From: a virus
Lineage: Duplodnaviria; Caudoviricetes
Direction: 5' to 3' (one strand)
IMG/VR virus record: IMGVR_UViG_3300042110_000398
Location: 1 to 36,783 of that record
DNA length: 36,783 nucleotides
A model generated the notes under the pieces. It worked only from the letters and a program-made list of their open reading frames with translations, was not told the DNA's origin and made no database searches. Both the position numbers and the translations under genes were made by a program. Shown here one piece after another: positions 4,374 to 31,537 of the stretch; positions within the stretch are counted from its first letter, which is position 1, and every line of letters begins with the position of its first letter.

Positions 4374-4425
4374 AGAAGACGAAATCGAAAAGGCTATTCA
4401 CAACCTAACACAACCGGGGTACGCA

Positions 4426-6065: not shown

Positions 6066-6469
6066 AACCAGCTAAAGTAGAGCTCCTGGCGAAGGTTATT
6101 GCGTGGAGGTTTTTCTCCATGCTGTACGGCTTCACAATAGCTTTCCTCTTCACCAACAACGTTTCTGAGTCGGCAGGAATAGTCTTCCTGACCGGCTCCA
6201 CCCTCACGATTCTGCAGTGGGGATTTGAGATATTCTGGGACAAATTTGCCAGACTGAGGATTAGAAATGCCCTTTCAAGAGAACAAGGTCGAGCTCATTG
6301 GTTGGTACGGTGGAGACGAGGCTCACGCCCTCTCAGCGTGGACGAGCACAAGCAGGGACATCAGTCTAGAGAAGAGGAAGAGAATTCCAGAGCTCCTGAA
6401 GATGCTCGCGGAGAACGGACACGAGACTCCGTTCGAGAAGAGCTCTCTCCACTTCCTCGTGACGGTTGA
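6062..6469 (+). CDS. Small membrane protein, DUF2061-like, with a 3' extension overlapping thyX
   Basis: LAKVIAWRFFS followed by two hydrophobic segments and FEIFWDKF; GTGA overlap with the glnII stop; last 203 nt overlap thyX. Confidence 0.55.
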   Translation: MKPAKVELLAKVIAWRFFSMLYGFTIAFLFTNNVSESAGIVFLTGSTLTILQWGFEIFWDKFARLRIRNALSREQGRAHWLVRWRRGSRPLSVDEHKQGHQSREEEENSRAPEDARGERTRDSVREELSPLPRDG

Positions 6470-6935
6470 CACTGCAACCCACATCCACCTCCTGAAGCAC
6501 CGCATCGGTGTCTCCATCAACGCAGAGTCCGCGAGGTACAAGGAGCTGAAGGACGACAAGTACGTGGTGCCGGATGACTGGCCCACTGTCGAGAAAGCGA
6601 AGTACATCGCGTTCATGGAAGACGCGATCATGCGCTACCATGATACGCTTGATCGCCTTGTGAAGAGTGGGATGGACCGAAAGCGGGCGAAGGAATCTGC
6701 ACGATTCTACCTGCCCTATGGCAATCAGGTGACGATGGACATCATGTTCAACTGGCGTTCTTTCAATCACTTTCTCAACCTGCGAATGAAGAGCGATGCG
6801 CAGAAGGAAGTGAGGGAGATCGCTGAGAAAATGCTCAATATAGTCGCTGGCATTCCAACCAACCCCTTCAAGCACACTATCGAGGCTTTCGGCCTTGCGG
6901 GAAGGGTCGAGGAAAGATTCCACGCGCCTTACTGA
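6267..6935 (+). CDS. thyX: Flavin-dependent thymidylate synthase
   Basis: GHETPFE, KHRIGVSINAESARY (RHRx8S variant), ESARFYLP, NWRSFNHFLNLR, AQKEVR. Confidence 0.92.
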   Translation: MPFQENKVELIGWYGGDEAHALSAWTSTSRDISLEKRKRIPELLKMLAENGHETPFEKSSLHFLVTVDTATHIHLLKHRIGVSINAESARYKELKDDKYVVPDDWPTVEKAKYIAFMEDAIMRYHDTLDRLVKSGMDRKRAKESARFYLPYGNQVTMDIMFNWRSFNHFLNLRMKSDAQKEVREIAEKMLNIVAGIPTNPFKHTIEAFGLAGRVEERFHAPY

Positions 6936-9717: not shown

Positions 9718-9924
9718 ATGAGACTCTCAGACAATTCAATTTCCGCGATAGCGCGGCTTGTTCAGATGGCAATCCTCACTGGGACCGATGTCGTCGATAA
9801 CCTGCGGCTCATGCGGCTCGTCCAGAGCGGTGACATCCTTGAGCCTGATGAGGAGTTCCTGAAGGGATTCGAGGAGTCCATTCAGAAGATGCTGGAGACT
9901 GCGAATGAGCTCGGCTCCCGGTAA
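9718..9924 (+). CDS. Hypothetical protein
   Basis: ATG 9718 behind AGGAG; 68 aa. Confidence 0.65.
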   Translation: MRLSDNSISAIARLVQMAILTGTDVVDNLRLMRLVQSGDILEPDEEFLKGFEESIQKMLETANELGSR

Positions 9925-10297
9925 GGAGTGCTCCCTCGAGGAGATGTTCCGGCTCCGTGTAGAGTTCATGGAGGCCCTGAAGGACCGAATCCCTGACGTC
10001 TACCCGCAGTGGCCCATTGATCCGACAGAGAAGCGCAATCAGGCCCACGTGAGGGACATTGCACTTCGAGGAGTCGAGGAGATGTTCGAGGCGCTCCAGC
10101 ACCTGAAGAACTCGAAGCCCCATCGACAGACTCACCTCCCTGACTTTGACAGGGAGGCCTTCCTCGAGGAGACAGTCGACGCATTCAATTACTTCTTCTC
10201 AGTCCTCGTCCTCCTGGGAGTCGACGCCAACGAGCTCCTTGAAGCGTACAAGAAGAAGCACAAAACGATAAAGAGACGCCTCGAAGACGGTTACTAA
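9905..10297 (+). CDS. All-alpha NTP pyrophosphohydrolase (dimeric dUTPase / dCTPase / MazG superfamily)
   Basis: EEMFEA...KPHR...EETVDAFNYF, the ExxE..ExxD metal-binding pattern. Confidence 0.75.
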   Translation: MSSAPGKECSLEEMFRLRVEFMEALKDRIPDVYPQWPIDPTEKRNQAHVRDIALRGVEEMFEALQHLKNSKPHRQTHLPDFDREAFLEETVDAFNYFFSVLVLLGVDANELLEAYKKKHKTIKRRLEDGY

Positions 10298-18712: not shown

Positions 18713-19741
18713 ATGAGTTCAATTAAAGAACTTCGCCAGTTGATAAGGGTCTACCTCGCTGAGGGCGGCTTGAAACTTCCTCCTGAGCACCGTAGAGACC
18801 TCACTCCGAGCATTGTCAGAGAGGCGAGCAGTGTCTACAGAGAATTTTTAAAAGGGTTCAACGCCTGGCTCGAGTCGAGAGGTAAGAAGCCTCTCGAGCC
18901 CATTCGTCCGACCGGCTCCTCGACTTACGCGGAGCGTGACGAGAGGGAGAGACCTGACGCTACTTACGGCGACATCGACTACCTCGTCTCCTTCCCGGTC
19001 GAGTATACGGACCCCGACCTCAACGTGAGGAGGAAGGAGGAGGCCGCCGCCGTGAAGGAGTACACAGAGCTCCTCACCGATTACCTCACCACAGCACGTC
19101 CCTCGATGGTAGACGTGGACCTCACTGTCGGTGGACACCCCCTGATGATCATCGTGAAGGTCCCTTCCGGTGGACTTGCACAGGTCGACACTGTCGTGAC
19201 CCACCCAGCCTACTCAGAGTGGATGAGGGGCAGGTACACCCCAGAGCGTGGCATCAAGGGCTACGTCACTGGGAACCTCTACAAGGCCCTCGGTGACTAT
19301 CTCGTGCTCACAATCGGGACCGAGGGCGTGATGGCCCGTCTCAAGGACGGTGAGAGGGTCCCGTCAAAGTTCAGGTCCGGCGTCACCTACCGCTCGATAT
19401 CCACTGACTTCAGGAACTTCTTCAGGGACATCGCGGACTATGTCATTGAGGGGGCCTACGTCGCTGACCCGCTCCTCGAACAGTACCCGGGAATGGACCC
19501 TGATAATGTAAATGTGAGCGACCTTGCTTATGGTATCATAGGACTCGCTCGGACAATGGAGAGAGCCGGAGAGGTGGACGCCACCGAGATGCTCCGGAAA
19601 ATCCATGAGTCGTTCATCGAAGGGATGGATGACAACGTTCTACGGAAGCTTTCGAAAGAGATCTCGCCTGAGCAAGAGGCAAAGATGCGGAAACTGAACG
19701 TAACGCAGGGAGAGAGGGTCCGCCAGATTTTCGGAGTCTAG
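18713..19741 (+). CDS. Pol-beta-superfamily nucleotidyltransferase-like protein
   Basis: PTGSS...YGDIDYLV and a downstream AQVD third acidic residue; leader LRQLIRVYLAE. Confidence 0.55.
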   Translation: MSSIKELRQLIRVYLAEGGLKLPPEHRRDLTPSIVREASSVYREFLKGFNAWLESRGKKPLEPIRPTGSSTYAERDERERPDATYGDIDYLVSFPVEYTDPDLNVRRKEEAAAVKEYTELLTDYLTTARPSMVDVDLTVGGHPLMIIVKVPSGGLAQVDTVVTHPAYSEWMRGRYTPERGIKGYVTGNLYKALGDYLVLTIGTEGVMARLKDGERVPSKFRSGVTYRSISTDFRNFFRDIADYVIEGAYVADPLLEQYPGMDPDNVNVSDLAYGIIGLARTMERAGEVDATEMLRKIHESFIEGMDDNVLRKLSKEISPEQEAKMRKLNVTQGERVRQIFGV

Positions 19742-19742
19742 C

Positions 19743-20381
19743 GTGAACTGGTTCACAAGCGACCAGCATTTCAACCACGAGAACATTATCAAGTACTGCT
19801 CCCGCCCCTTCGAGTCACTGGGAGCGATGAACGCCGCAATCATTGAGCGGTGGAATGAGACGGTCAGGGACGAGGACACTGTGTACGTCGTGGGTGACGT
19901 GTTTCTCGGAGATGCAGGGGCGGGAGCGGGGATAGTGAGGAAGCTTCGTGGGAAGAAGGTCCTCATCAAGGGAAACCACGACAGGTCGCACCGGACGATG
20001 CTCGAGTCTGGATTCGACGAGGTCTGGCAGCGGAAGTCGATTGAACTCCTTGATGGGAGGAAGGCGCTTCTCTGTCACAAGCCCCTCCCCGAGTCGGTCA
20101 TCAACCACGTCGATCTCCAGGTCCACGGTCACCGGCACTCAGGTCCCATTGTCTCTGGCAAGAGGGTCAACGTGTGTGTCGACCTCTGGGACTATCGTCC
20201 GGTCTCTGAGGAGGAGATCATCGGTCTCCGGCTCGGTTCTCCTCGACCCGATCACGTGAGCGTCGAGGTCACCGCAGAGTTCGTGAAGGTCACTGCATCG
20301 GTGCGGAAGGAGGACTATGAGGGACTCCTCGACCACCTACAGGGTTACTCTCGTACAATCTGGGACATTCGAGAAGAGTGA
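19743..20381 (+). CDS. Calcineurin-like metallophosphoesterase
   Basis: FTSDQHFNH, VVGDV, KGNHD, LCHKP, VHGHRH. Confidence 0.88.
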   Translation: MNWFTSDQHFNHENIIKYCSRPFESLGAMNAAIIERWNETVRDEDTVYVVGDVFLGDAGAGAGIVRKLRGKKVLIKGNHDRSHRTMLESGFDEVWQRKSIELLDGRKALLCHKPLPESVINHVDLQVHGHRHSGPIVSGKRVNVCVDLWDYRPVSEEEIIGLRLGSPRPDHVSVEVTAEFVKVTASVRKEDYEGLLDHLQGYSRTIWDIREE

Positions 20382-20394
20382 ATGGAGGTTACCA

Positions 20395-20625
20395 ATGGCG
20401 TTATCGCTTGAGAACCAGAAGCTAATCCGTGAAAGGGCAAAGGACGCAGGGGATCACCTGAAAGGGAAGCTACCGCCCTGCAAGTTCCTGAAGCAGAGGA
20501 ACTCTTACGCTCACATCTGGGAGCGTCTGAAGTCCCGCCTCGGTCGTTCTTACAAGGACTGTGACGACAGCGAGGTCCCACGAATTCTTGAGATGATTGA
20601 GTGGTACAAGAACAACCCATGTTAG
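20395..20625 (+). CDS. Hypothetical protein
   Basis: ATG 20395 behind GGAGG; RNSYAHIW motif. Confidence 0.65.
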   Translation: MALSLENQKLIRERAKDAGDHLKGKLPPCKFLKQRNSYAHIWERLKSRLGRSYKDCDDSEVPRILEMIEWYKNNPC

Positions 20626-20634
20626 GAGATTGAG

Positions 20635-20838
20635 ATGGAAATCGGTACGAAGGTGAAGGTCATCAATGAGGGCGGTAACGTGTGCGCAGTTGGAACCTAC
20701 CAGGGATCAGGCCTCCCTGCTCGTAGTCTCAATGCCCAGTACCCGCACCTGCAGCACTACGCGATATTCGTGGAGAACCAGATGCGGTACTACCCGACTG
20801 GCTTCCACACCCTCGTGAAGGCAGGCCCGAACGATTGA
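20635..20838 (+). CDS. Small hypothetical protein (possible SH3/KOW-like barrel)
   Basis: AGGAG RBS; MEIGTKVKV start. Confidence 0.6.
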   Translation: MEIGTKVKVINEGGNVCAVGTYQGSGLPARSLNAQYPHLQHYAIFVENQMRYYPTGFHTLVKAGPND

Positions 20839-21032
20839 AGAAGGGCGACATCGTCAGGTTCACTCTTCACCCTGATGACGGCTTGTACGTGGTCGTGAAA
20901 GGTCCGTATGAGTCGTCATTTGTTGTGACAAAGTACCTCACCGAGACGAGACTTGTCGTGGACCTCTACGGTGAGGAAGGACTCCTTGAGAGAGTCCCGC
21001 CAACCTCGCTTGAGATTGTGACAAGGTCTTGA
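20835..21032 (+). CDS. Small hypothetical protein (possible SH3/KOW-like barrel)
   Basis: TTGA overlap; MKKGDIVRF start. Confidence 0.55.
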   Translation: MKKGDIVRFTLHPDDGLYVVVKGPYESSFVVTKYLTETRLVVDLYGEEGLLERVPPTSLEIVTRS

Positions 21033-21057
21033 ACAACTCGACGCAGAATTCTACAGT
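21029..21057 (+). promoter_or_regulatory. Possible sigma70-type promoter for the dnaE operon
   Basis: TTGAAC-17 nt-TACAGT followed by an AAGGAG RBS. Confidence 0.45.
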
Positions 21058-21075
21058 ACCTCACAAGGAGTAGCA

Positions 21076-24000
21076 ATGTCAAATGTTCCTTCCCGTTTCG
21101 TGGGTTTACATTCTCATGACGGGTTCAGTGTTTATGACGGGCTCGGCCTCCCACAGGAGCATATCGACTTCTGCGTTGAGAATGGTCTTGACGCATGGTC
21201 GATGACGAATCACGGACACATGAACTCCTTCGGCCACGCCTGGCTTCATGCTGACAAGATGAAGAAGGCAGGTGGGAATTTCAAGCTCATCCCTGGGTGT
21301 GAGATGTACCTCCATCCCGACCTGGAAGAGTGGAGGAAGGACGCTCGAGCTGCCAAGGAAGACGGTGGTGGAAAGCGTCGGAAGAAGAAGGAAGAGGAGC
21401 TTGCGACCCCGCTTGTCGCGGTCGTGGACGGGAATGACGAGGCGGTTGACGTCGGGCTTGACACTGCGGCTTTGACCGTTGAGAACGAGGAAGAGACGAA
21501 GTCCAACAAGTTCTACAACCCCGTGAATCGTCGACACCACCTCGTGGTAATTCCGAAGACTTCAAAGGGTCTGGAGCGCCTCTTTGGGCTTGTCTCTCGA
21601 TCCTACGCTGAGGGTTTCTACAGGTTCCCTCGAATTGACTACAAGATGTTGAAGGAAGCTGCACAGGGTGACTTCTTCGTTTCGACAGCCTGCATCGGCG
21701 GTCCTCTCGCCTGGGAGACCTTCCAAGAGATTCAGAATGTCGAATTCGAGAACCTGAACTGGCGTCTCCTCAATGACCCGTCCCTGATGGAGCGGACCCT
21801 TTCCCGTATCGGTGAGACTTACGGTCGGCTCACCGATGCCGTCGGCCGTGAGAACCTCCACCTTGAGATTCAGTTCAATCGACTTCCAGCTCAGCACCTG
21901 GCAAACCGAGCTCTCATCGAGTTTGCTCGGAGGGAGGGTCTCACTGAAAAGCTCGTGGTGACCTGTGACTCTCACTATGCCCGTCCGGAGCACTGGAAGG
22001 AGCGTGAGATCTACAAGAAGCTGGGGCGTCTTGCTTTCGAGACTTTCAACCCAGACTCTCTACCGAAGTCGAGGGAGGATCTCAAGTGTGAGCTCTACCC
22101 GAAGAATGCGAAGCAGGTCTGGGAGACCTACATGGAGACCCGTGGAGACGCGGACTTCTACGATGACGTGATGGTGAAGGAAGCTGTTGAGCGGACCTGG
22201 GACATTGCTCACAGCACCATCGGTGACGTCCAGCCTGATCGTTCCGTGAAGCTCCCGACTTATGTCATCCCAGAGGGCAAGAGCGGCATTGAGGCTCTCA
22301 CCGAGTCCGTGAAGGAGGGCCTGAAGAAGAAGGGTCTCCACACGAACAAGGAGTACGTCCAGCGGGCCATCTACGAGCTGAAGGTCATTAAGGACAAGGA
22401 CTTCGCTTCCTACTTCCTCACGATGAAGGAGATCCTCCAGACCGCACGTGAGAAGATGTTTGTCGGTCCTGGTCGAGGCTCCGCGGCAGGAAGCCTTGTC
22501 TGCTACGTCCTTGGAATTACCGACGTAGACCCGATCAAGTACGACCTCCTCTTCGAACGTTTCCTCTCTCCTGACCGAGAGGGCCTGCCTGACATTGACA
22601 CGGACGTTGAGAACCGCGATCTTCTCCTTGAGCTTCTTCGAGGAAGGTTCGGTGATGAGAACATTGTTCCGATCTCGAATTACAACACCTTCAAGTTGAA
22701 GTCCCTCATTCGAGACATCTCGAGGTTCCACGATATTCCCCTCGAAGAGGTGAATGACGCTCTTCGAACCGTGGAGAGGGATGTCGTCAACAATGTCCGA
22801 AAGGCAGGTGACGACAAGAACCTCTTCGTGCTCACTTTCGAGGACTCTTACGAGTACTGCAAGTCCTTCAAGGACTTCATCGACAAGTACCCGCAGATCG
22901 GGGAGAGCGTGAAGGTCCTCTTCCGGCAGAACAAGGCGCTTGGTCGACATGCCGGTGGTGTCATCGTCTCTGAGAAGATCGCGGAGCGGATGCCCCTCAT
23001 CGCGGCAAGAGGTGAGAGCCAGACTCCTTGGGTCGAGGGAATGAACTACAAACACCTTGAGATGCTCGGGTGGGTGAAGTTCGACCTTCTCGGTCTTGAA
23101 ACTCTCCGAATCATCAGGAAAGCTATCGAGCTCATCCTACAGCGTCACCATGGTGTGAAGAACCCGACGTTCGCAGAGGTGAAGGACTGGTTCGACAAGA
23201 ACATGGCGCATGAGGTGATCGACTTCAATGACCAGAGGGTCTATGAGAACGTCTACCACGAAGCGACAACTCGAACCCCGGGCGTCTTCCAGTTGACATC
23301 TGCCGGAGCCCAGAAGCTCTTTCAGAAGGCGAAGCCGAAGTCTATCGTCGACATTGCGACTCTGACATCGATTTACCGACCTGGCCCCCTCGCCGCAAAG
23401 GTCGATAAGCTCTACCTTGAAGCGAGAGCGAACCCACGGGACATCGATTACAAGCATCCGCTCATCAAGCAGGTCCTCGAGCCCACCTTCGGGTGTATCA
23501 TCTTCCAGGAACAGCTGATGGCACTATGCAATGTGGTTGCCGGTTTCCCGAAGTCCGAGTGTGACAAGGTCCGAAAGAACATCCTGAAGCGCCAGGGAGG
23601 TAACCCTGAAGAGTCGATGAAGAAGGCGAAGGCGATGAAGGACAACTTCGTCCAGGGTTCCGTGAAGAACGGGGTGAGGGAAGACATCGCTTCGAAACTC
23701 TGGGACGACATCCTCTTCTTCGCAGGTTACGGATTCAACGCTTCTCATGCCGTGGCTTACGCAATCGACTCTTACTACTGCGCATGGCTCCTCACCTACT
23801 ACGAGGCAGAATGGCTCTGTGCCTATCTCGAGTCGATGATCGGGAATCCTGAATCGAGAGCTGAAGCAATCGCCGCGGTGAAGAGCTTCGGGTACGAGGT
23901 CGGAAAGGTGGACGTCAATGAATCCACGAATGACTGGACAATCTCCAGCTCGAGGAAGGCTTTCATTCCGTCCTTCTCGACTGTGAAATCGGTGGGCTCT

Positions 24001-24666
24001 GCCGCCATCGAAGAGATCACGGAGCTCCGGCCCTACATCGACATCAAGGACCTCTTCTACAATCCTGATGGAAGCTGGAAACACAGCAAGTTCAACAGGA
24101 AGGGGATGGAGGCCCTCATCAAGCTGAAGGGTTTTGACTCGATGAACATTGTCGGTCCTGACAAGTTCTTCTCTTCCTACAAGCACATGCACCACGTGGT
24201 GATCGAATCGGCAGAATTTGTCCGAAAGCACTCGAAGAGGGATCCGTGGGTCGGATACAAGAAGATGGTTGAGCTTGCGACCGAGACACATGGGATGGAG
24301 GAGTGGACGAAGAAAGAGTCAGCCCTCTTCCAGAGAGAGCTTGTCGGAGATGTCGACGCCTACAGCCTCATGACCGCCGAGACGAAGAAGAAGCTTGAGG
24401 AGAATGAGGTGAGGCCCATCGATCAATGGGAGATTCTTGACCTCTACTGGTTCATGGTGAAGGGATCTGTCGAGAAGACCACGAAGAAGGGCAAGCCCTA
24501 CCTCCTCCTTGAGGTCGCTGGAGTCGACGGTACAGCGAAGAGGATGTACCTCTGGGACTGGGACGGCAAGACAAATTTCGAGCCCTACACCATCTGCATC
24601 GGTGAGGTAGACAAGTCGGACTTTGGTTTCGCTTCTAAGCTTCGAAAGATGAAAATCCTGGGATGA
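21076..24666 (+). CDS. dnaE: Family C DNA polymerase (DNA polymerase III alpha-like)
   Basis: PHP domain LHSH..YDG; GPGRGSAAGSLV; LLFERFL..R..LPDIDTD; GRHAGG; KFDLLGL; FAGYGFNASHAVAY; C-terminal OB fold. Confidence 0.95.
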   Translation: MSNVPSRFVGLHSHDGFSVYDGLGLPQEHIDFCVENGLDAWSMTNHGHMNSFGHAWLHADKMKKAGGNFKLIPGCEMYLHPDLEEWRKDARAAKEDGGGKRRKKKEEELATPLVAVVDGNDEAVDVGLDTAALTVENEEETKSNKFYNPVNRRHHLVVIPKTSKGLERLFGLVSRSYAEGFYRFPRIDYKMLKEAAQGDFFVSTACIGGPLAWETFQEIQNVEFENLNWRLLNDPSLMERTLSRIGETYGRLTDAVGRENLHLEIQFNRLPAQHLANRALIEFARREGLTEKLVVTCDSHYARPEHWKEREIYKKLGRLAFETFNPDSLPKSREDLKCELYPKNAKQVWETYMETRGDADFYDDVMVKEAVERTWDIAHSTIGDVQPDRSVKLPTYVIPEGKSGIEALTESVKEGLKKKGLHTNKEYVQRAIYELKVIKDKDFASYFLTMKEILQTAREKMFVGPGRGSAAGSLVCYVLGITDVDPIKYDLLFERFLSPDREGLPDIDTDVENRDLLLELLRGRFGDENIVPISNYNTFKLKSLIRDISRFHDIPLEEVNDALRTVERDVVNNVRKAGDDKNLFVLTFEDSYEYCKSFKDFIDKYPQIGESVKVLFRQNKALGRHAGGVIVSEKIAERMPLIAARGESQTPWVEGMNYKHLEMLGWVKFDLLGLETLRIIRKAIELILQRHHGVKNPTFAEVKDWFDKNMAHEVIDFNDQRVYENVYHEATTRTPGVFQLTSAGAQKLFQKAKPKSIVDIATLTSIYRPGPLAAKVDKLYLEARANPRDIDYKHPLIKQVLEPTFGCIIFQEQLMALCNVVAGFPKSECDKVRKNILKRQGGNPEESMKKAKAMKDNFVQGSVKNGVREDIASKLWDDILFFAGYGFNASHAVAYAIDSYYCAWLLTYYEAEWLCAYLESMIGNPESRAEAIAAVKSFGYEVGKVDVNESTNDWTISSSRKAFIPSFSTVKSVGSAAIEEITELRPYIDIKDLFYNPDGSWKHSKFNRKGMEALIKLKGFDSMNIVGPDKFFSSYKHMHHVVIESAEFVRKHSKRDPWVGYKKMVELATETHGMEEWTKKESALFQRELVGDVDAYSLMTAETKKKLEENEVRPIDQWEILDLYWFMVKGSVEKTTKKGKPYLLLEVAGVDGTAKRMYLWDWDGKTNFEPYTICIGEVDKSDFGFASKLRKMKILG

Positions 24667-24695
24667 ATGAGTATTATCTCAATGAAGGAGAGCGT

Positions 24696-25763
24696 ATGAA
24701 CATCGGTTACAGCTTCTGGGGATATCTCACGCCCTTTGAAGAGAACAATGTCGTGGCCACGCCTGACGGTGAACGCGGTAATCGTGTCGACTTTGTCGAT
24801 GAGATGCTGAAGCGTGGACACAAGGTCACGAGGCTTCAGATTCAACGTGATGAGAAGCCATACAAGAATGTCGAGCTCCATGCCGACGGCGGTTTTCCGG
24901 ACGTTGATGTCGCTTACTTCGAGTGGCGATGGCCGACATGGAAGAATGACGTCACCGTCGGTGGAGACAGGGCTTCCGAGCCTGACTACCGCCGTCAGAT
25001 GGCCTGTCTGAATCACTACCACCGTAAGGGAGTTCCGATCATCATCCACGACGGTGATCTGAAGATGACTCCTGCCGAGGAGGAGATGTTCCCAAATGCA
25101 GTCCTCAGTGACGCATGTGTGAACCCCCGTGTCCAGACAAGGAAGCGCTTGACCCTTCCCTGGTGTAACTACCTCAATCGACGCCTGAAGACTGTCGAGT
25201 ACTCTTACAACTACACCTACGTGGGTAACAACTACGAGCGTGACCAGCAGTTCAAGAAGTACTACGGACTTCCCGCCAGGGGTCTGCGAGACCGAGGAGT
25301 GCAGACGATTGTCTATGGGAACTGGCTTGACAGGAGTCCTGAGAGACGAGACCCTCACCATCTCTTGAGGGAGAACCCATACGTCTCTTTTGGCGGTCGA
25401 CTGGCGTACAACGAGATCTTTGACGCATTCAACCGCTCAATCGCGGTAACGCACATCACGAAAGACGAGTACACACCCTTCGGCAACATCACAGGTCGTT
25501 TCATGGAGGGCGTGATGTCTGATGTCGTGGCTCTTATTCCGAGTGAATACGTCCACGCTCGACCTGTCGGTCTCGGAGAGTTTGTTGTGGACAGTCCTGA
25601 GGACGTTATCAGGTGCGTCAATGTCCTCAACAATATGTCGGCAGTTGATCGTCATCAAATTGTTCAGGAGCAGGAAAGGGCTCTTCGAAAGGTCGTGGAT
25701 ATCCGGCCTGAGCACAGGGTCGACATCATCGAGGCTGTAGCAAAGGGAGAGATCAAGGCATGA
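24696..25763 (+). CDS. GT-B DNA glycosyltransferase, T4 beta-glucosyltransferase-like
   Basis: By-eye colinearity with T4 Bgt as I recall it: TPDGE (PSSE), IIHD (LFTD), VYGN (FFGN), SIA..I..EY..NITGRFME..SDVVALI (AIA..NY..FITLRVWE..SDAVMLI); ATG 24696 behind AAGGAG (alternative start 24663). Confidence 0.7.
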   Translation: MNIGYSFWGYLTPFEENNVVATPDGERGNRVDFVDEMLKRGHKVTRLQIQRDEKPYKNVELHADGGFPDVDVAYFEWRWPTWKNDVTVGGDRASEPDYRRQMACLNHYHRKGVPIIIHDGDLKMTPAEEEMFPNAVLSDACVNPRVQTRKRLTLPWCNYLNRRLKTVEYSYNYTYVGNNYERDQQFKKYYGLPARGLRDRGVQTIVYGNWLDRSPERRDPHHLLRENPYVSFGGRLAYNEIFDAFNRSIAVTHITKDEYTPFGNITGRFMEGVMSDVVALIPSEYVHARPVGLGEFVVDSPEDVIRCVNVLNNMSAVDRHQIVQEQERALRKVVDIRPEHRVDIIEAVAKGEIKA

Positions 25764-26281
25764 GCGTTCTAGTGGCATTCGAAGGGCCGGACATGTGCGG
25801 CAAGACTGAGATAGCCAGAGAGCTATCTCGTCAGCTCGGAGTCAATGTCTATAAGAACTCGGGAGAGTGGACTACGGACCTGAAGAGCCCAGACTACTTC
25901 AAGAACCTTCTCGTGTTCGGCGGTACCTTTCTAATCGATTTTATCAGTCAGGTCAGGCCTCAAGCGATTCTTGACAGATACTATCCGTCGGAGTGGGTCT
26001 ACTCACGTCTCTTCGACAGGGAAACTGACAACGACATCCTCCGCAGGATTGACGAAAAGTTTGCAGAATCCGGTGGGAAGATTGTCCTCTTTCGCAGGAA
26101 GAGCTATAATGGGATTCAAGATGACCTGCACAGCTACATCGACGAGAAACTTCTGATGAGGCTTGACGCTCTCTACGAAGACTTCTCTAAGTGGACGACC
26201 TGCCCGGTCCTTACTGTCTGGGTCGATGACGAAGACCTCAATCGTGAAGTGAGTGAGATCCGGGAATGGCTGAACGCATGA
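25760..26281 (+). CDS. dNMP kinase (thymidylate-kinase-like)
   Basis: FEGPDMCGKT P-loop; ILDRYYPSEWVY; ATGA overlap. Confidence 0.85.
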   Translation: MSVLVAFEGPDMCGKTEIARELSRQLGVNVYKNSGEWTTDLKSPDYFKNLLVFGGTFLIDFISQVRPQAILDRYYPSEWVYSRLFDRETDNDILRRIDEKFAESGGKIVLFRRKSYNGIQDDLHSYIDEKLLMRLDALYEDFSKWTTCPVLTVWVDDEDLNREVSEIREWLNA

Positions 26282-27234
26282 AGTCCTACGACAGTTTCAC
26301 ACGAGCCTACGTAGACCTCTGTCGTCTCATCAGAGATGAACATGAGTTTGAGTCGGCCCCTCGGGGGATGAAGATAAAGGAGAGCCTCGGTGTCCAGTTT
26401 CGTATCAAGAATCCTCGCGACCGTCTCCCTCTGGTTGCGGCTCGAAACTTCTCGGCCGCGTACTTCGTTGCGGAAACGCTCTGGTACCTGTCAGGATCCG
26501 ATTCCACTGCATGGATCTCCCGGTACGCTTCCTTCTGGAAAAATATCACAGACGACGGTGTGACGGCGAACTCCGCCTACGGTGCTCGAATCTTCCGTCC
26601 GCATGACAGGATTGCTAACAGAGGAATTGTGCAGTGGGATTACGTGAAGGAGGAGCTCCGGAAGGACCCTGACTCCCGTCGAGCTGTCATCCACATCAGG
26701 ACACCTGACGACTCTCTCCACGCTGTGAAGGATGTCCCGTGCACTCTCGCCCTCCAGTTCTTCATCCGTGAGGGCAAGCTTCACCTCCACGTCAACATGC
26801 GTTCCAGCGACATCATCCTCGGGATCGCTTATGATGTCCCTGCGTTCACCACGATGCAGGAGATCATGGCGAACGAGCTGGGTGTCGGTCTCGGTGAGTA
26901 TGTCCACACATCGAACTCTCTTCACTGCTATGAGAGGGACTTCGAGATGCTGGACGCTATAGCGAATGACGACGATGCAAAGGGCTGTCAGATGGCTCCC
27001 TTGCCGGAAGTCTTTCCCACAGAGAAGCTTCTTGCGTACGAGCAGATGGTTCAGGGGCTGACCGAGTCCGAGCTGAGAGACGGGGTCCACGAGATGGGAA
27101 GGGAAGAGCAGCTCGTGAGAGACTGGACTCTCGTCCTCGGAAGCTTCAGGGCGAGGAAGCTGAAGGACGATCGACTTGCGAAGATCCAGCTCCTCTCTAC
27201 CACTGACAGAGTCTACCACTTCTACAATAGGTGA
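26278..27234 (+). CDS. ThyA-fold enzyme, predicted dCMP hydroxymethylase (or methylase)
   Basis: AETLWYLSG, DSRRAVI, DVPCT (catalytic Cys), MRSSDIILGIAYD with Asp at the position of dUMP-specifying Asn177, SLHCYE; ATGA overlap at 26278 (alternative start 26266). Confidence 0.8.
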   Translation: MKSYDSFTRAYVDLCRLIRDEHEFESAPRGMKIKESLGVQFRIKNPRDRLPLVAARNFSAAYFVAETLWYLSGSDSTAWISRYASFWKNITDDGVTANSAYGARIFRPHDRIANRGIVQWDYVKEELRKDPDSRRAVIHIRTPDDSLHAVKDVPCTLALQFFIREGKLHLHVNMRSSDIILGIAYDVPAFTTMQEIMANELGVGLGEYVHTSNSLHCYERDFEMLDAIANDDDAKGCQMAPLPEVFPTEKLLAYEQMVQGLTESELRDGVHEMGREEQLVRDWTLVLGSFRARKLKDDRLAKIQLLSTTDRVYHFYNR

Positions 27235-27237
27235 AAC

Positions 27238-28236
27238 ATGAGAGCACTAGTTACCGGGGGCTGCGGGTTTATCGGCTCCAATTTGACACATGAGCTTGTG
27301 AAGAGAGGATGGAAGGTCGACATTGTAGATGACATGTCGAACGGTTTCTTGGAGTTTCTTGATGGGCTTGACATCAAGGTCGTCCCAGGATTTATGCTCC
27401 CCCAGTACGAAGAGAAGTACGAGTCTGCCCGTGATGACAGCCTTGTCCTTGTGATCCAGGACGACATTGAGTCGAAGGACGTCCTGCGTCGGATAGAAGC
27501 CGGTAAGTATGACAGGGTCTTTCACCTCGCGGCGAACCCAAGGATCTCCTACACTGTTGAGCACCCTGCCAACACTTTCGACATCAACGTGACTCGAACT
27601 GTGAAGATGCTCGAGAGCGTGAACCGCGCTCCTCACAAGGTCCGATTCATCTTCTCATCGACGTCCTCGGTCTACGGCGACGCGAAGGACCTCCCGACTC
27701 CCGAGTCCCAGGAGAAGGCTCCCCTCTCTCCCTATGGCCTACAGAAGCTCACGGTAGAGGAGTTCCTGCGGCTCTCACACAGGCTTTACGGCACTGACTC
27801 AGTATGTCTTCGTTACGCGAATGTCTACGGTCCCCGGCAGTTCGGAAATTCTCCCTACTCCACGGCGATCTCGGCCTGGTGCCAGAAGATGAATGACGGT
27901 GAGCCCCTCCGTTCTGATGGGGACGGTGAGCAGACGAGGGACATGGTCTTCGTGGGAGACGTAGTTCGTGCGAACATCCTCGCTGCAACGAGAGAAGAGG
28001 GCTTCGACGGCATTGCGATGAACGTTGGCACAGAGACGAGAGTCTCGAACAACCACATCCTCGGTCTCTTCCGGCAGAAGTTCGGTGAAGTGAAGGTCAA
28101 CCACGCGCCCACTCGACCAGGCGACGTGAGGAACACACAGCTCAGTATTTCCACCGCAAACTCGCAGCTGGGATACGTACCACAGGTCGCCCTCGAGGAG
28201 GGTCTTGCTAGAACCTGGTCGTGGTGGGGTCTCTAA
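27238..28236 (+). CDS. NAD-dependent NDP-sugar epimerase/dehydratase (extended SDR, GalE/WbpP-like)
   Basis: VTGGCGFIG, FHLAA, FSSTSSVYG, SPYGLQK (YxxxK), RYANVYGPRQ, GDGEQTRD, RPGDV. Confidence 0.9.
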   Translation: MRALVTGGCGFIGSNLTHELVKRGWKVDIVDDMSNGFLEFLDGLDIKVVPGFMLPQYEEKYESARDDSLVLVIQDDIESKDVLRRIEAGKYDRVFHLAANPRISYTVEHPANTFDINVTRTVKMLESVNRAPHKVRFIFSSTSSVYGDAKDLPTPESQEKAPLSPYGLQKLTVEEFLRLSHRLYGTDSVCLRYANVYGPRQFGNSPYSTAISAWCQKMNDGEPLRSDGDGEQTRDMVFVGDVVRANILAATREEGFDGIAMNVGTETRVSNNHILGLFRQKFGEVKVNHAPTRPGDVRNTQLSISTANSQLGYVPQVALEEGLARTWSWWGL

Positions 28237-28643
28237 TGGCAGCGGCAAAGGAGTCTTGGAGAAGCAAGTCATCGAAGGAGAGCAAGCCCTGGGGTGACAC
28301 CACAATCTGGCACACGTTCCAGACGATACACGGCAAGGTCATCACGATCCACAAGGGACACAGGACGAGCCTCAAGTACCACACGATCAAGAATGAGGTC
28401 TTCTTCGTCCTCCGTGGTCTCATCAAGGTCACTCATGGAAACTCGAAGACCCTGAAGGACAGCGAGAAGCACCCTTACCGAGTGAGCATCCTGAAGCCCG
28501 GTGAGATCCTCATGGTACAGTCAGAGTGTCCCTATCGAATCGAGGCGCTTGAGGAGTCCGAGATCATCGAGGTCGGCGACCGCTCTGACAATGAACCCGT
28601 TCGACTGGAGGACGACTATGGGCGTGCGAAGAAAGAGTCCTGA
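28236..28643 (+). CDS. Cupin, mannose-6-phosphate isomerase type II-like
   Basis: KPWG, RTSLKYHTIKNE, IIEV, VRLEDDYGR; TAATG overlap. Confidence 0.75.
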   Translation: MAAAKESWRSKSSKESKPWGDTTIWHTFQTIHGKVITIHKGHRTSLKYHTIKNEVFFVLRGLIKVTHGNSKTLKDSEKHPYRVSILKPGEILMVQSECPYRIEALEESEIIEVGDRSDNEPVRLEDDYGRAKKES

Positions 28644-29488
28644 ATCTTCTTTAGCGCAGTCCCTGCTTTCACTTCGAGATCGGTCACCCTGACTAACCTG
28701 ATGGAGTGAGACATGAACCATGAGTCCTGTCTTCTGTCTTGCTCCCACTTTCCAACTCTACCAATGTCTCTCGGTTTGCTCGACTCTCTTATCTCCTCAA
28801 TTGGCTTGTCGAGTCCATGCCAGTAGACACCGTCGAGCTGCACGTAGGTATCGATAGAAGGGATATAGAAGTCAATGGGCCAGCGGTTGACTCTCTTTTG
28901 CCGGACAATGTTTCCGAACTCGGATGACAGGGTCTCTGCGAAAGAGTTCTCGATCTTTGATGACCACTTTTGAGGAGACTGCATCATGAGAGAACAAAGT
29001 TTTTCTTGCAAGTGGGGTTGATTGCGAGGGTCTCTCTGGCCGTACTTCTTCATCCATGTGACCTCTCTCTTTGCTAGCATCTCTGGTGATTGGAAAGTCT
29101 CAGCGTGTCCGTATTTTTCCAAGTGAGTCCTCTTTCTCTTCTCTTTGAACTCCTCACAGTGAGATGGGTTCTCTACTCCATACCTTTCAAGAAGAGTCTT
29201 CTTGATCTTGTCCCTTGTCTCCTTGAGCTGCATCGGGTTTTCTACTCCGTGAATCTCAAGCATCTTCTTCTTGGTGAGGTTGTACCCCTCCCTTCCGACC
29301 CTGATGGACTCACCCCTGCATCTTCTACTGCAGAAAGTCAGTCCGCTGGAGGAATGACTAGCGTTAGCAGGTCTCTTGTCATAGGTGGTCTTGCAAAAAT
29401 CGCATAGATATCGAAGGATGACGTTGACCTGTTTCGACTGTTCGCCGTTCTTCTTGACCCTTGGGATCTCGATCCTCTCTATGAACAT
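28616..29488 (-). mobile_element. Free-standing homing endonuclease-like gene (Zn-binding N-terminus, YGVENP repeats, Vsr/DUF559-type nuclease domain)
   Basis: CDFC..FCSRRC; repeats HGVENP / YGVENP / YGHAET / YGQRDP; IDFYIP..VQLDGVYWHG; own AGGAG RBS; the only credible minus-strand gene. Confidence 0.72.
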
Positions 29489-29503
29489 TTCGTCTCCTGC
29501 TAT

Positions 29504-29510
29504 TAGATAT
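29504..29510 (-). promoter_or_regulatory. Candidate late-promoter element ATATCTA (minus strand)
   Basis: ATAnnTA 15 nt before the endonuclease ATG. Confidence 0.4.
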
Positions 29511-29566
29511 TCTCAACATTGATGTGGAGTGGAAAGACTATGATAAAGAAGTCACGGAAGTCCAGG

Positions 29567-30118
29567 ATGAACAAAGAGTTTATAATGTATGTGGGTCCGA
29601 TGTGGTCGGGCAAGACGACTCGACTCACCGCGGCGGTCGAGCGGCACCGCATCAGGCAGACTGATGTTCTCTGTTTCAAGCCTGATATTGACGGCAGGTA
29701 CGCGGCAAGCTCCATCGTCACCCACTCAGGCTCGAGAATGGACGCCCTCTCCGTGAGTAGGGGCGACCAGATCCTTCAGCATGTCGCGGACCACAGGCCC
29801 GAGGTCATCGCGGTCGACGAGGCGTTCATGATCGAGGGCTGCGCCGAAGCCCTCATCAACATCTTCAAGCGTGGCGTCTCTGTTTACGTCTCGTCGATCG
29901 AGCTCTCTGCGAACCTGAAACCCTTCGGTGAGGTCGAGAAGATGATGCCCTTTGCCACGAGGGTCGAGAAGTGCACCGCGGTCTGCGTTTCATGTGGCGA
30001 TGATGCGGCTCTTACTCACCGGAGGGTCCCATCTCTTGAAGAGATATCCGTGGGTGGGGCTGACAGCTACGAGCCGATGTGCTGGACATGTCATCCACTT
30101 GTGAAGCTCGAGGACTGA
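29567..30118 (+). CDS. tdk: Thymidine kinase (type II)
   Basis: GPMWSGKTT, FKP.ID.RY, IAVDEA, C..CG, VGGADSYEPMCWTCH; ORF is open upstream to 29519. Confidence 0.9.
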   Translation: MNKEFIMYVGPMWSGKTTRLTAAVERHRIRQTDVLCFKPDIDGRYAASSIVTHSGSRMDALSVSRGDQILQHVADHRPEVIAVDEAFMIEGCAEALINIFKRGVSVYVSSIELSANLKPFGEVEKMMPFATRVEKCTAVCVSCGDDAALTHRRVPSLEEISVGGADSYEPMCWTCHPLVKLED

Positions 30119-30179
30119 ATAGTTTGCTCTGGCTATTTCCGAATCCCACAGAGTGAATTAACAGGACATAGGAGCACCA

Positions 30180-31016
30180 ATGATCGTCGAACCCTCTTCT
30201 GTCGATCTCGTAATCTATCACGCGAACTGTACCGACGGATTCGGGGCGGCCTATGCAGCCTGGAAGCTCCTCGGTGACAGGGCCGAGTACCACGCCGCGA
30301 AGTATGGTGAACCTCCGCCTGACGTGAAGGGCAAGAATGTCGTGGTCCTCGACTTCTCCTACGACAACGCGACCACCAAGCGACTCATGAAGGAGGCGAA
30401 GGGTTTCCTCATCATCGACCACCACAAGTCGGCGATGGTCGAGCTCCACGACGTCTCCTGCACCCGCTTCGATATGACGCACAGCGGAGCGATGCTCGCC
30501 TGGAGCTTCTTCCACCCAGGGAAGGAGGCTCCCCGGATGATCAAGTTCATCGAGGACCGTGACCTCTGGAAGTGGGAGATCCCGTACTCGAAGGAGTTCT
30601 CCGCGGCCTTCGACATGGTGAAGTTCGACTTCGAGGAATTCGACAAGTACCTCGACGACTCGGAGGTCGACAACGCCCAGGAACGTGGAGCTTACATCCT
30701 CGCCTACTCGAAGACTGTGATATCGAAGATCTCGAAGAACGCCTCCTCCCGGAAGCTCGGTGGGAAGGACGTCCTCGTGGTGAACTCACCCCACTGGATG
30801 TCGGAGATCGGAGCGGCCCTCTCCCCCAAGTGCGACTTTGCGGTGATCTGGTACTATGACCACGAGACGAGACAGGTGAAGGTGAGCCTCCGAGCCCACC
30901 ACGACGACTCGGACGTGAGCGAGGTCGCGAAGAAGTACGGGGGCGGCGGCCACCGGAAGGCCGCCGGTTTTGCCCTCCCGCCCGACACCAGCATCGAGAC
31001 GATATTCGACAAGTAG
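30180..31016 (+). CDS. DHH/DHHA1 phosphoesterase (NrnB-like)
   Basis: YHANCTDG, VLDFS, IIDHH, EDRDLW, SLR, GGGGHRKAAGF. Confidence 0.88.
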   Translation: MIVEPSSVDLVIYHANCTDGFGAAYAAWKLLGDRAEYHAAKYGEPPPDVKGKNVVVLDFSYDNATTKRLMKEAKGFLIIDHHKSAMVELHDVSCTRFDMTHSGAMLAWSFFHPGKEAPRMIKFIEDRDLWKWEIPYSKEFSAAFDMVKFDFEEFDKYLDDSEVDNAQERGAYILAYSKTVISKISKNASSRKLGGKDVLVVNSPHWMSEIGAALSPKCDFAVIWYYDHETRQVKVSLRAHHDDSDVSEVAKKYGGGGHRKAAGFALPPDTSIETIFDK

Positions 31017-31023
31017 TCACGGG

Positions 31024-31515
31024 ATGACATCTGTGACACAGGAAATCCTGCCAATGGATATACCCAACAATGACTTTCTGGATCATCTGAGGCTACCCGT
31101 GGAACATCACCGTACACCCTGGGACCAGGTTTGGATCGAGACCGCCAAGATTCTAGCGGGGAGGTCATACGACCCGAGGTTCAAGGTCGGCGCAGTGATC
31201 GTCACCGAGGACAACACGCAGGTCCTCGCGGTTGGGTACAACGGCGATCACAGGGGCGGACCAAATTCCGTGGAGTCCACTGAGCCCGGCCAGTCTGGCT
31301 TCATCCACGCAGAGATCAACGCCCTCATCAAGTGCGACTTCAACCACCCGAAAGCGAAGAAGATGTACCTCACCCTCTCTCCCTGTCGCCAGTGCGCGAA
31401 GGCGATCATCAACGGTGGGATAAGGGAGGTCGTCTACGACGCTGAATACCGTGACACGAGCGGGATAGAGCTCCTTAAGTCGGTTGGGATTGTGGTCCGG
31501 AAACACGGTTCGTGA
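31024..31515 (+). CDS. dCMP deaminase
   Basis: VGAVIV, GYNG, HAEINAL, LSPCRQCAKAI; start ATG 31024 or 31054. Confidence 0.88.
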   Translation: MTSVTQEILPMDIPNNDFLDHLRLPVEHHRTPWDQVWIETAKILAGRSYDPRFKVGAVIVTEDNTQVLAVGYNGDHRGGPNSVESTEPGQSGFIHAEINALIKCDFNHPKAKKMYLTLSPCRQCAKAIINGGIREVVYDAEYRDTSGIELLKSVGIVVRKHGS

Positions 31516-31521
31516 TAGTTA
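31515..31521 (+). promoter_or_regulatory. Candidate late-promoter element ATAGTTA
   Basis: ATAnnTA 16 nt before ATG 31538. Confidence 0.45.
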
Positions 31522-31537
31522 TTCTCGAGGACTAAGC

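What the first reader, a model, noticed from the sequence alone, without database searches (positions are those of the whole stretch)
21076..28643. Polymerase-coupled glycosyl-hydroxymethylcytosine DNA hypermodification operon with its own sugar-donor enzymes
Seen: dnaE, a GT-B glycosyltransferase, a dNMP kinase, a ThyA-fold enzyme, an NDP-sugar epimerase and a cupin sit in one tightly coupled run (ATGA/TAATG overlaps). Established: T4 makes hm-dCMP (gp42), phosphorylates it (gp1), incorporates it with a family B polymerase and glucosylates DNA from host UDP-glucose (Agt/Bgt). Inference: this phage uses the same logic with a family C polymerase and supplies a dedicated nucleotide-sugar, so the base is probably hmC carrying a non-glucose sugar (Gal, GalNAc or another epimer). 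I do not recall this combination being characterised, but I could not search the literature.
Basis: partly seen in the sequence, partly recalled or inferred. Interest (0 to 1): 0.9.

Follow-up and report, generated by a model that had tools for sequence, protein, structure and literature searches.

The report
Jumbo-phage sugar-coated hydroxymethylcytosine gene block
An uncultured freshwater jumbo phage carries, directly behind its bacterial-type DNA polymerase gene, a T4-like gene set that likely replaces cytosine with hydroxymethylcytosine and likely attaches a sugar, but the neighbouring sugar-epimerase and cupin genes also stay in relatives that lack this sugar transferase, so they are not shown to be its private sugar supply.

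Summary
All six genes are real, co-oriented and closely packed.

The core reading holds. The ThyA-fold enzyme has the residue signature of a dCMP hydroxymethylase, not of a thymidylate, CMP or 5-hydroxy-dCMP synthase, and a separate ThyX covers dTMP. The glycosyltransferase is GT-B, and T4 beta-glucosyltransferase is its only significant PDB sequence match. DnaE, kinase and synthase accompany it in 50-52 of 58 distinct viral loci.

The 'dedicated sugar donor' claim fails the reverse test. Only 15 of 49 distinct loci with the orthologous epimerase carry this transferase. Epimerase and cupin belong to a fixed downstream block, while the slot behind dnaE swaps between at least five cytosine-modifying modules. 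The cupin lacks canonical metal ligands.

A galactose-type sugar is my best guess (about 0.5). The transferase shares two motifs with sister enzymes encoded beside UDP-galactopyranose mutase, but glucose remains possible.

Non-glucose cytosine glycosylation with phage-made donors is published (RL38JI, RB69/DLP3, Pyle et al.). This scan has already reported the same module on other DNA several times. New variant of a known kind.

The parts
21076..24666 (+). DnaE-type (family C) DNA polymerase with PHP domain; inferred to incorporate hm-dCTP
   Evidence: Pfam PF02811/PF07733/PF17657/PF14579; TIGR00594 over cut-off; acidic catalytic motifs at residues 505-510 and 668-674; best cultured-phage matches about 26-30% identical
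24696..25763 (+). T4-BGT-related GT-B glycosyltransferase (longest ORF starts 24663); predicted DNA hmC glycosyltransferase
   Evidence: Profile A1 hits only T4 BGT in PDB sequences (E 7.5e-7); AF2 pLDDT 94; VIA-align top Z 21.7 to BGT but tied with BshA/PimA/AGT; D132, R279, E282 (numbering from 24663) conserved at 1.00 (rounded) in 143 homologues and aligned with BGT D100, R269, E272
25760..26281 (+). dNMP-kinase-like P-loop protein; inferred hm-dCMP kinase
   Evidence: phrog_761 thymidylate kinase E 1.6e-10; YorR E 9e-5; family profile hits RL38J1 gp214 at E 4e-10
26278..27234 (+). ThyA-fold enzyme with dCMP 5-hydroxymethylase signature (longest ORF starts 26266)
   Evidence: Best PDB match MilA E 1e-41; T4 gp42 28% identical, E 4e-18; R138/D156/C159/S180/D182/D190 (numbering from 26266) equal E. 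coli R126', L143D, C146, S167, D169, N177D
27238..28236 (+). UDP-hexose/HexNAc 4-epimerase-like SDR; clade-core gene, possible but not dedicated donor supplier
   Evidence: Best PDB match 4zrm 'UDP-glucose 4-epimerase' E 2e-51, then 6wjb/6dnt, WbgU, WbpP; same position in 34 of 49 distinct loci lacking this GT
28236..28643 (+). Cupin with degenerate metal site; role unknown, not tied to the GT (longest ORF starts 28221)
   Evidence: Cupin fold, no specific sugar-isomerase match; Lys and Tyr in 86 of 86 at two canonical His positions; present in 15 of 58 GT loci
28616..29488 (-). Homing endonuclease, optional insertion between cupin and thymidine kinase
   Evidence: PHROG homing endonuclease E 1e-14; empty allele in 2 of 4 runs
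29519..31515 (+). Thymidine kinase, DHH phosphoesterase and dCMP deaminase: rest of the fixed downstream block
   Evidence: Pfam PF00265, PF01368/PF02272, PF00383; syntenic in relatives with and without the GT
6267..6935 (+). ThyX thymidylate synthase; frees the ThyA-fold gene from dTMP synthesis
   Evidence: PF02511 E 7e-36
9905..10297 (+). MazG-like nucleotide pyrophosphohydrolase; candidate dCTPase (T4 gp56 role), specificity untested
   Evidence: phrog_12184 E 6e-15; homologue within the flank of 26 of 78 GT loci

Best explanation
The phage likely makes 5-hydroxymethyl-dCMP with its ThyA-fold enzyme, likely phosphorylates it with the adjacent kinase, likely builds it into DNA with its DnaE polymerase, and its T4-BGT-related transferase is predicted to add a sugar to the hydroxymethyl group after replication, which would shield the genome from host nucleases. 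The sugar is most likely galactose-configured: about 0.5 in all (Galf about 0.25, Galp or GalNAc about 0.25), against glucose about 0.3 and others about 0.2; these odds are my judgement. The epimerase can supply UDP-Gal or UDP-GalNAc, but it is an inherited core gene of this phage clade, not part of the swappable modification module. The cupin is probably not in the pathway. Shown: gene content, order, active-site residues, fold and co-occurrence. Inferred: every chemical step.
For: Synthase: N177D (dCMP), L143D (hydroxymethyl), no D169N, and Arg/Ser at the MilA K133/A176 sites (diagnostics from PMC13326640 sections 24 and 28, and PMC5175136 passages). 65 of 67 neighbouring synthases share all six residues; the other 2 are truncated. 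ThyX and dCMP deaminase are in the window. GT: T4 BGT is the only significant PDB sequence hit and the top VIA-align row. The family aligns end to end with BGT, with conserved D132/R279/E282. Of 58 distinct GT loci, DnaE is in 52, kinase in 51 and synthase in 50, including complete 44-61 kb phages. For galactose: the sister GT clade has UDP-galactopyranose mutase (Glf) between synthase and GT. Glf is in 10 of 15 GT-bearing and 0 of 34 GT-less epimerase loci. The window's GT shares the loop at residues 36-41 and Gly278 with all 9 Glf-clade GTs shown, whereas 6 of 9 members of its own clade differ at both. An RGP-type mutase lies one to three genes upstream of the GT in another branch.
Against: No chemistry was tested. 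By structure BGT is tied within 1 Z unit with BshA, PimA, a sucrose-phosphate synthase, AGT and PglA, and Foldseek ranks LPS enzyme WaaG first and BGT third. The N-terminal half of the BGT alignment is low-confidence (global hhalign P 64%). There is no Glf in the window. Among 8 records of the window's own GT clade (14-51% complete), 1 has Glf; it lies in a separate glycan cluster, and that phage's GT has the other loop. The shared loop may simply be ancestral. The epimerase diverges far more than the GT or synthase between the two closest phages (62% against 91% and 96%). The same GT family sits in actinomycete chromosomes without any polymerase, so a nucleotide or small-molecule acceptor cannot be excluded.
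Confidence: 0.75

Rival explanations
1. Plain glucosyl-hmC as in T4. The GT uses host UDP-glucose, and the epimerase serves the phage's other glycan pathways (virion or host-surface glycans).
For: The closest characterised relative is T4 BGT. Five of 5 complete small phages with this GT lack any SDR epimerase. Four of 5 large related genomes carry separate GT4/GT2 clusters with further SDRs. The epimerase persists in records without this GT that are 77-100% complete. NAD-dependent epimerases are among the ten largest structure clusters of huge phages (passage in 10.64898/2026.10.24.761521).
Against: Glf, RGP-type mutase and UDP-xylose-synthase-type genes recur beside this GT family (13, 4 and 6 of 58 loci), which a glucose-only family would not need. 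The window's GT shares motifs with the Glf clade.
Confidence: 0.25
2. One reading: epimerase and cupin are dedicated enzymes that make a special donor (for example UDP-GalNAc) for this GT.
For: Tight packing. The orthologous epimerase is in 27 of 58 GT loci, nearly all of the jumbo clade. A small residue (Thr300) at the inferred gatekeeper position would admit N-acetylated substrates (rule from 10.1101/2020.09.22.308395 passages). Epimerase-dependent phage GTs are published (10.1101/2023.12.21.572611).
Against: 34 of 49 epimerase loci lack the GT, and the cupin is in 24 of those 34. On the epimerase tree the modifier changes between near neighbours; starred branches force at least 4 changes for the Glf-less GT label. 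The cupin lacks two His ligands, and 14 of 80 cupin-anchored loci with a close cupin (149 bits or more) show none of the cassette genes.
Confidence: 0.15
3. The GT acts on a free nucleotide (hm-dCMP or hm-dCTP) or a non-DNA acceptor, and the DNA carries plain hmC or a sugar added before replication.
For: Structure matches include small-molecule GT4 enzymes at equal score. The family occurs in actinomycete operons that look like nucleoside biosynthesis clusters.
Against: The only significant sequence-level PDB relative is a DNA enzyme. A bulky glycosyl-dNTP passing a replicative polymerase has no precedent that I recall.
Confidence: 0.1
4. The synthase makes 5-hydroxy-dCMP (RL38JI/RB69 type) or 5-methyl-dCMP rather than hm-dCMP.
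For: The kinase is related to RL38J1 gp214, and RL38JI also pairs a TS homologue with a GT and Glf (PMC13326640).
Against: D169 is kept in 65 of 65 complete neighbours, while RL38J1 gp216 has Asn there. L143D argues against methyl.
Confidence: 0.07

Closest known systems
T4 glucosyl-5hmC pathway (gp42 dCMP hydroxymethylase, gp1 kinase, gp56 dCTPase, beta-glucosyltransferase, gp43)
   Same: ThyA-fold synthase with L143D/N177D (28% identical to gp42), BGT-related GT-B, a kinase, dCMP deaminase and a candidate dCTPase; in T4, bgt and gene 42 also lie next to the polymerase gene.
   Different: Family C instead of family B polymerase; YorR/TMPK-like kinase; ThyX for dTMP; GT only about 16% identical to BGT in structure alignment; relatives add mutases beside the GT.
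Rhizobium phage RL38JI galactosyl/glucosyl-5-hydroxycytosine system (PMC13326640)
   Same: Kinase, GT and TS homologue are adjacent; the kinases are homologous; a phage UDP-galactopyranose mutase is proposed to supply a galactose donor.
   Different: RL38JI's synthase is a D169N hydroxylase; its gp215 and gp237 do not match this GT profile (gp151 not tested); no Glf in this window.
Epimerase-paired phage DNA glycosyltransferases, subclass II of Pyle et al. (bioRxiv 10.1101/2023.12.21.572611)
   Same: 5hmC carrying Hex, HexNAc or HexA, with activity depending on a neighbouring epimerase; the paper also notes GT-B enzymes beside thymidylate synthases, DNA polymerases and epimerases in metaviromes.
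   Different: Those use a post-replicative methylase plus dioxygenase route, and the paper places all its tested GT-B enzymes in subclass III. Here hmC would be made before replication, and the epimerase is not exclusive to the GT.
RB69/DLP3 arabinosyl-5-hydroxycytosine (PMC13326640)
   Same: Phage-encoded donor synthesis for a non-glucose sugar; DLP3's clustered kinase gp78 also matches YorR.
   Different: Different base chemistry, different donor enzymes, T4-like phages.
MilA CMP hydroxymethylase (PMC5175136)
   Same: Best PDB sequence match of the synthase (E 1e-41).
   Different: The window enzyme has Arg/Ser where MilA has Lys133/Ala176, the pair whose exchange switches MilA to dCMP.

Membership tests
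dCMP 5-hydroxymethylase (T4 gp42 type) | ThyA fold with catalytic Cys146 | tested here: met
   PF00303; C159
dCMP 5-hydroxymethylase (T4 gp42 type) | Asp at E. coli N177 and acidic residue at L143 | tested here: met
   D190 and D156 (rule from PMC13326640 section 24)
dCMP 5-hydroxymethylase (T4 gp42 type) | Deoxyribose determinants Arg126'/Ser167 | tested here: met
   R138 and S180 (PMC5175136 passages)
dCMP 5-hydroxymethylase (T4 gp42 type) | Makes 5hm-dCMP | not testable with these tools
   needs an assay
5-hydroxy-dCMP synthase (RB69 gp48, RL38JI gp216) | D169N | tested here: not met
   D182 retained; gp216 has Asn
MilA CMP hydroxymethylase | Lys133/Ala176 | tested here: not met
   Arg/Ser
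T4 beta-glucosyltransferase family | GT-B fold | tested here: met
T4 beta-glucosyltransferase family | Profile-level homology to BGT | tested here: met
   E 7.5e-7 against PDB sequences, C-terminal third; hhalign P 88%
T4 beta-glucosyltransferase family | Passes a curated BGT family model | tested here: not met
   Only PF13524 at E 0.008, below cut-off; no PHROG or NCBIfam hit
T4 beta-glucosyltransferase family | BGT is the clearly closest fold | tested here: inconclusive
   Z 21.7 (rmsd 3.7, 299 aligned) tied with GT4 enzymes; Foldseek rank 3
T4 beta-glucosyltransferase family | Asp at BGT D100 and Arg/Glu at R269/E272 (roles recalled; a D100A structure is listed) | tested here: met
   D132, R279, E282 conserved at 1.00 (rounded) in 143 rows; the D132 match rests on a low-confidence global alignment
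T4 beta-glucosyltransferase family | Transfers glucose to hmC in DNA | not testable with these tools
   needs an assay
T-even glucosyl-hmC system | Family B replicative polymerase | tested here: not met
   DnaE; the window is a fragment, so a second polymerase elsewhere is not excluded
T-even glucosyl-hmC system | dCTPase | tested here: inconclusive
   MazG-like gene at 9905-10297, specificity unknown
Epimerase-dependent DNA GT clusters (Pyle subclass II) | GT and epimerase travel as a pair | tested here: not met
   15 of 49 epimerase loci have the GT; 27 of 58 GT loci have the orthologous epimerase
Epimerase-dependent DNA GT clusters (Pyle subclass II) | Methylase plus TET-like dioxygenase make hmC | tested here: inconclusive
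   None among 42 window ORFs scanned; genome incomplete
UDP-hexose 4-epimerase (GalE/WbpP) | Extended SDR with TGxxGxxG, Ser/Thr, YxxxK and Asn | tested here: met
UDP-hexose 4-epimerase (GalE/WbpP) | Substrate group (Glc/Gal versus GlcNAc/GalNAc) | tested here: inconclusive
   Thr300 at the inferred gatekeeper; no NCBIfam model passes its cut-off
Type II phosphomannose isomerase-like cupin | Cupin barrel | tested here: met
Type II phosphomannose isomerase-like cupin | His-His-Glu-His metal site (pattern recalled; first His read from the MncA alignment) | tested here: not met
   Lys 86/86, His 68/86, Glu 86/86, Tyr 86/86

The most novel reading that the evidence does not exclude
This clade of freshwater and marine DnaE jumbo phages keeps an exchangeable 'cytosine modification slot' behind its polymerase gene. 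The version here uses an undescribed BGT-related family that prefers furanose donors and puts galactofuranose on 5-hydroxymethylcytosine, a base I found in no paper searched. The same enzyme family would also give actinomycetes a cellular deoxy-hmC glycosylation and carbamoylation pathway.
Probability: 0.25. Interest if true: 0.7.

Novelty: new variant of a known kind. Interest (0 to 1): 0.45.

Why it matters
If right, a bacterial-type family C polymerase replicates a fully hmC-substituted genome; I found no described case. An unannotated BGT-related family, absent from 50,697 cultured-phage records by tblastn with four queries, would extend sugar camouflage of DNA to many uncultured phages and offer new hmC-labelling enzymes. 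The practical lesson is that an epimerase next to a DNA glycosyltransferase is not proof of a dedicated donor. The swappable slot gives a natural series for testing which gene sets the sugar.

Tried and rejected
Cultured relatives: tblastn of four family members against the phage collection found nothing.

Promoter and terminator scan of 20300-31600: chance level (6 against 4.4+/-2.1; 8 against 7.7+/-2.8).

Palindrome avoidance: mild and uninformative, since C-free TTAA is also under-represented.

PADLOC: 0 of 8 proteins matched.

Cupin fold search: generic cupins only, with a phosphomannose isomerase at rank 37. The single-sequence PDB search gave nothing.

BFVD fold search: top rows unnamed.

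RL38J1 gp215 and gp237 as family members: rejected.

The alternative slot GT (alignment A4) as a relative of this GT: rejected (P 0.4%).

Actinomycete epimerases as orthologues: rejected. They are about 30% identical with a different motif set, which I read from recall as UDP-glucuronate 4-epimerase type.

I first read the 22 'kinase-only' loci as unmodified phages. That was wrong: the protein is a kinase fused to a minimal TS domain, so those phages may also modify cytosine, and a different DNA GT elsewhere in them is not excluded. The script label 'hmU-type' is also wrong: the two such synthases aligned carry the dCMP signature.

The MazG count (37) comes from a chained cluster and was dropped in favour (26 of 78). 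L052 fell out of the gene set, so the 58 distinct loci come from 77 of 78.

The GT tree is the quick tree and the position of T4 BGT on it is unreliable.

Iyer et al. 2013 (PMC3763556) was not available. From recall it may already predict such TS plus GT neighbourhoods. Supplements were not read; the contig tables of Pyle et al. may include this GT family. A search for a paper giving BGT residue roles found none.


Full report
Observation. The six genes are present as described, on one strand, from 21076 to 28643. Two ATGA overlaps and one TAATG overlap are well supported. Synthase and epimerase are separated by 3 nt, and the GT probably starts at 24696 rather than overlapping dnaE. The window is the whole record held, 36,783 bases. 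Its closest IMG/VR relatives are fragments whose completeness estimates imply genomes near 340 kb (83 kb at 24%, 172 kb at 51%), so about nine tenths of this phage is unseen. The six runs holding half or more of the sampled words are freshwater metagenomes, two of them possibly the source. Four others were laid and hold the stretch; in two of them a variant lacks the homing endonuclease between cupin and thymidine kinase.

The base. The ThyA-fold protein matches MilA best among solved structures (E 1e-41) and T4 gp42 at 28%. Published diagnostics can be read directly. PMC13326640 (abstract, sections 24, 27, 28, 29 and passages of 25 read) gives N177D for dCMP, L143D/E for hydroxymethyl products and D169N for 5-hydroxy-dCMP synthases. 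PMC5175136 (passages read) gives Lys133/Ala176 for CMP against Arg/Ser for dCMP. The window enzyme has Arg138, Asp156, Cys159, Ser180, Asp182 and Asp190, the dCMP hydroxymethylase set, and 65 of 67 neighbouring synthases agree, the other two being truncated. A ThyX, a dCMP deaminase and a MazG-like pyrophosphohydrolase are in the window, which fits a T4-like rerouting of cytosine nucleotides. The kinase is YorR/thymidylate-kinase-like and homologous to the kinase in RL38J1's modification cluster. Activity is inferred, not shown.

The transferase. It has no curated family and 111 homologues in the protein search. A profile of 82 of these sequences finds T4 beta-glucosyltransferase as its only significant PDB match (E 7.5e-7). 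The model is a confident GT-B (pLDDT 94). VIA-align ranks BGT first (Z 21.7, rmsd 3.7, 299 aligned) but tied with several GT4 enzymes, and Foldseek ranks the LPS enzyme WaaG first, so the fold alone does not decide the acceptor. Pyle et al. report similar mixed hits for GT-B enzymes proven to act on DNA (section 8 read). Across 143 phage and bacterial homologues, Asp132, Arg279 and Glu282 are conserved at 1.00 (rounded) and align with BGT D100, R269 and E272 (their roles are recalled). Context is the stronger evidence. Among 58 distinct viral loci (from 77 of the 78 fetched), DnaE occurs in 52, a kinase in 51 and the synthase in 50, across jumbo phages and complete 44-61 kb phages.

The donor enzymes. 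The epimerase is an extended SDR closest to structures labelled UDP-glucose 4-epimerase and to WbpP/WbgU. A threonine at the inferred gatekeeper would admit N-acetyl sugars (rule from passages of 10.1101/2020.09.22.308395), so Gal and GalNAc cannot be separated. Searching outward from the GT, the orthologous epimerase appears in 27 and the cupin in 15 of 58 loci, which looks like support.

The reverse search undoes that. From epimerase and cupin profiles I took 160 loci (the best 80 of each; the epimerase scan covered only 6 of 64 parts of the collection). Of these, 68 hold the orthologous epimerase and 27 of the 68 the GT. After removing near-copies, 15 of 49 have the GT (10 with Glf). Of the rest, 22 have only a kinase fused to a minimal TS domain, 5 a synthase with an unrelated GT4-like enzyme, 4 a cassette with HMUDK-helical and DNA-methylase-like genes, 1 a synthase with a carbamoyltransferase, and 2 are other or truncated. 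The cupin is in 38 of the 49, including 24 of the 34 without the GT. Whole-record searches found the GT in 0 of 20 such records, three of them 78-100% complete, and in both positive controls. On an epimerase tree the slot content changes between close neighbours. Five of five complete small phages with the GT have no SDR epimerase. Four of five large genomes carry separate GT4/GT2 clusters that could use the epimerase's product. The cupin has Lys and Tyr at two canonical His positions and no specific structural match. So epimerase and cupin are inherited neighbours of a variable slot. One caution: the kinase-TS fusions keep Cys and the dCMP Asp in 23 of 23, so those phages may also modify and even glycosylate cytosine with some other enzyme, which would give the epimerase a DNA role throughout the clade.

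Which sugar. The genes that track this GT are ring-contracting mutases. Glf sits within a gene or two upstream of the GT in the sister clade and in two further branches, and an RGP-type mutase in another. No GT-less epimerase locus has Glf within the flank fetched (0 of 34). The window's GT and its two closest relatives share the 36-41 loop and Gly278 with the Glf clade, while six other members of its clade differ. That these residues face the donor is inferred from BGT. Against this, the window has no Glf, and only 1 of 8 incomplete records of its clade has one. That copy is 61-65% identical to the sister clade's Glfs but lies in a separate glycan cluster, in a phage with the other loop. I put a galactose-configured sugar at about 0.5, glucose at 0.3 and others at 0.2.

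Comparison with what is known. The logic is T4's. Non-glucose sugars with phage-made donors are established for RB69/DLP3 (arabinose) and RL38JI (galactose, with a mutase proposed) on 5-hydroxycytosine (PMC13326640). Epimerase-dependent Hex, HexNAc and HexA transfer to 5hmC is shown by Pyle et al., who also note GT-B genes near thymidylate synthases, polymerases and epimerases (passages and sections 8 and 9 read). Iyer et al. 2021 (passages and section 19 read) describe DnaE jumbo phages, and epimerase/cupin clusters for surface glycans, without linking DnaE to glycosyl-hmC. A synthase plus carbamoyltransferase pairing is known (PMC8670742, passages). My searches (listings only unless named) found no paper on this GT family or on a family C polymerase with hmC; the library lacks most subscription journals. 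Earlier notes of this scan describe the same module on other genomes, and the kinase-TS fusion. I had reached the Glf and fusion results before seeing them, and they are not independent evidence.

Verdict. A real, well-supported predicted glycosyl-hmC pathway; a new variant of a known kind. Interest 0.45.

Noticed in passing
L080-L159 (GTDB contigs), e.g. L114:5332-13298, L111:4400-11772: The same GT family (25-31% identity) sits in a conserved chromosomal operon of actinomycetes (79 of the 80 loci kept, plus one Anaerolineae; 133 matches in all). It comes with a ThyA-fold synthase that mostly has the dCMP hydroxymethylase signature (61 rows with Ser, 16 with Gly at S167, 3 MilA-like), a carbamoyltransferase (78 loci), an SDR epimerase (74 of 81), a small kinase, a SAM methyltransferase, an APH-like kinase and a His phosphatase, and no polymerase. 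It could be a cellular DNA hypermodification or a deoxynucleoside antibiotic pathway, and deserves its own study.
   Followed up: partly
L169:5955-6863, L170:7064-7972 and about 20 more: A 302-aa kinase fused to a minimal TS-fold domain fills the slot behind dnaE in 22 of 49 distinct loci. Cys and the dCMP Asp are kept in 23 of 23; position 169 is D 13, N 5, E 5. Pfam misses it.
   Followed up: partly
L161, L166, L176, L279, L299; L165; L167, L168, L269, L278: Other slot contents: an unrelated 425-442 aa GT4-like enzyme; a carbamoyltransferase with an ATP-grasp protein; and a cassette with HMUDK-helical, DNA-methylase-like, FkbM methyltransferase and inositol-1-phosphate synthase genes.
   Followed up: partly
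L060, L067-L078: Complete 44-61 kb phages carry kinase, GT, synthase and DnaE with a GT47-like second transferase and often a radical SAM gene, and no epimerase in 5 of 5 tested: candidate di-glycosylated hmC in small phages.
   Followed up: partly
L160 (G004:99000-116000): A separate glycan cluster beside structural-looking genes: two GT4-like enzymes, Glf, epimerase, UDP-glucose dehydrogenase, GDP-mannose dehydratase, another SDR and a DegT aminotransferase.
   Followed up: partly
L026, L028, L029, L034, L035, L047; L056, L059, L063, L064, L066: UDP-xylose-synthase-type SDRs (type read from recalled motifs) or RGP-type mutases near the GT suggest pentose variants in other branches.
   Followed up: no
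window 28616-29488 (-): Optional homing endonuclease; the empty allele exists in the same populations.
   Followed up: yes
window 27238-28236: The epimerase is only 62% identical to that of L001, while GT, synthase and DHH are 91-96%; possible recent exchange or altered selection.
   Followed up: no
window 5031-6065, 4264-5028, 7858-8310, 8886-9677, 33876-34607: Auxiliary genes: glutamine synthetase, ClpP, HhH-GPD and Fpg-type DNA glycosylases, and an SOD C-terminal domain protein.
   Followed up: no
window 18713-19741 and 31484-33385: Large ORFs with no Pfam, PHROG, NCBIfam or PADLOC match.
   Followed up: no
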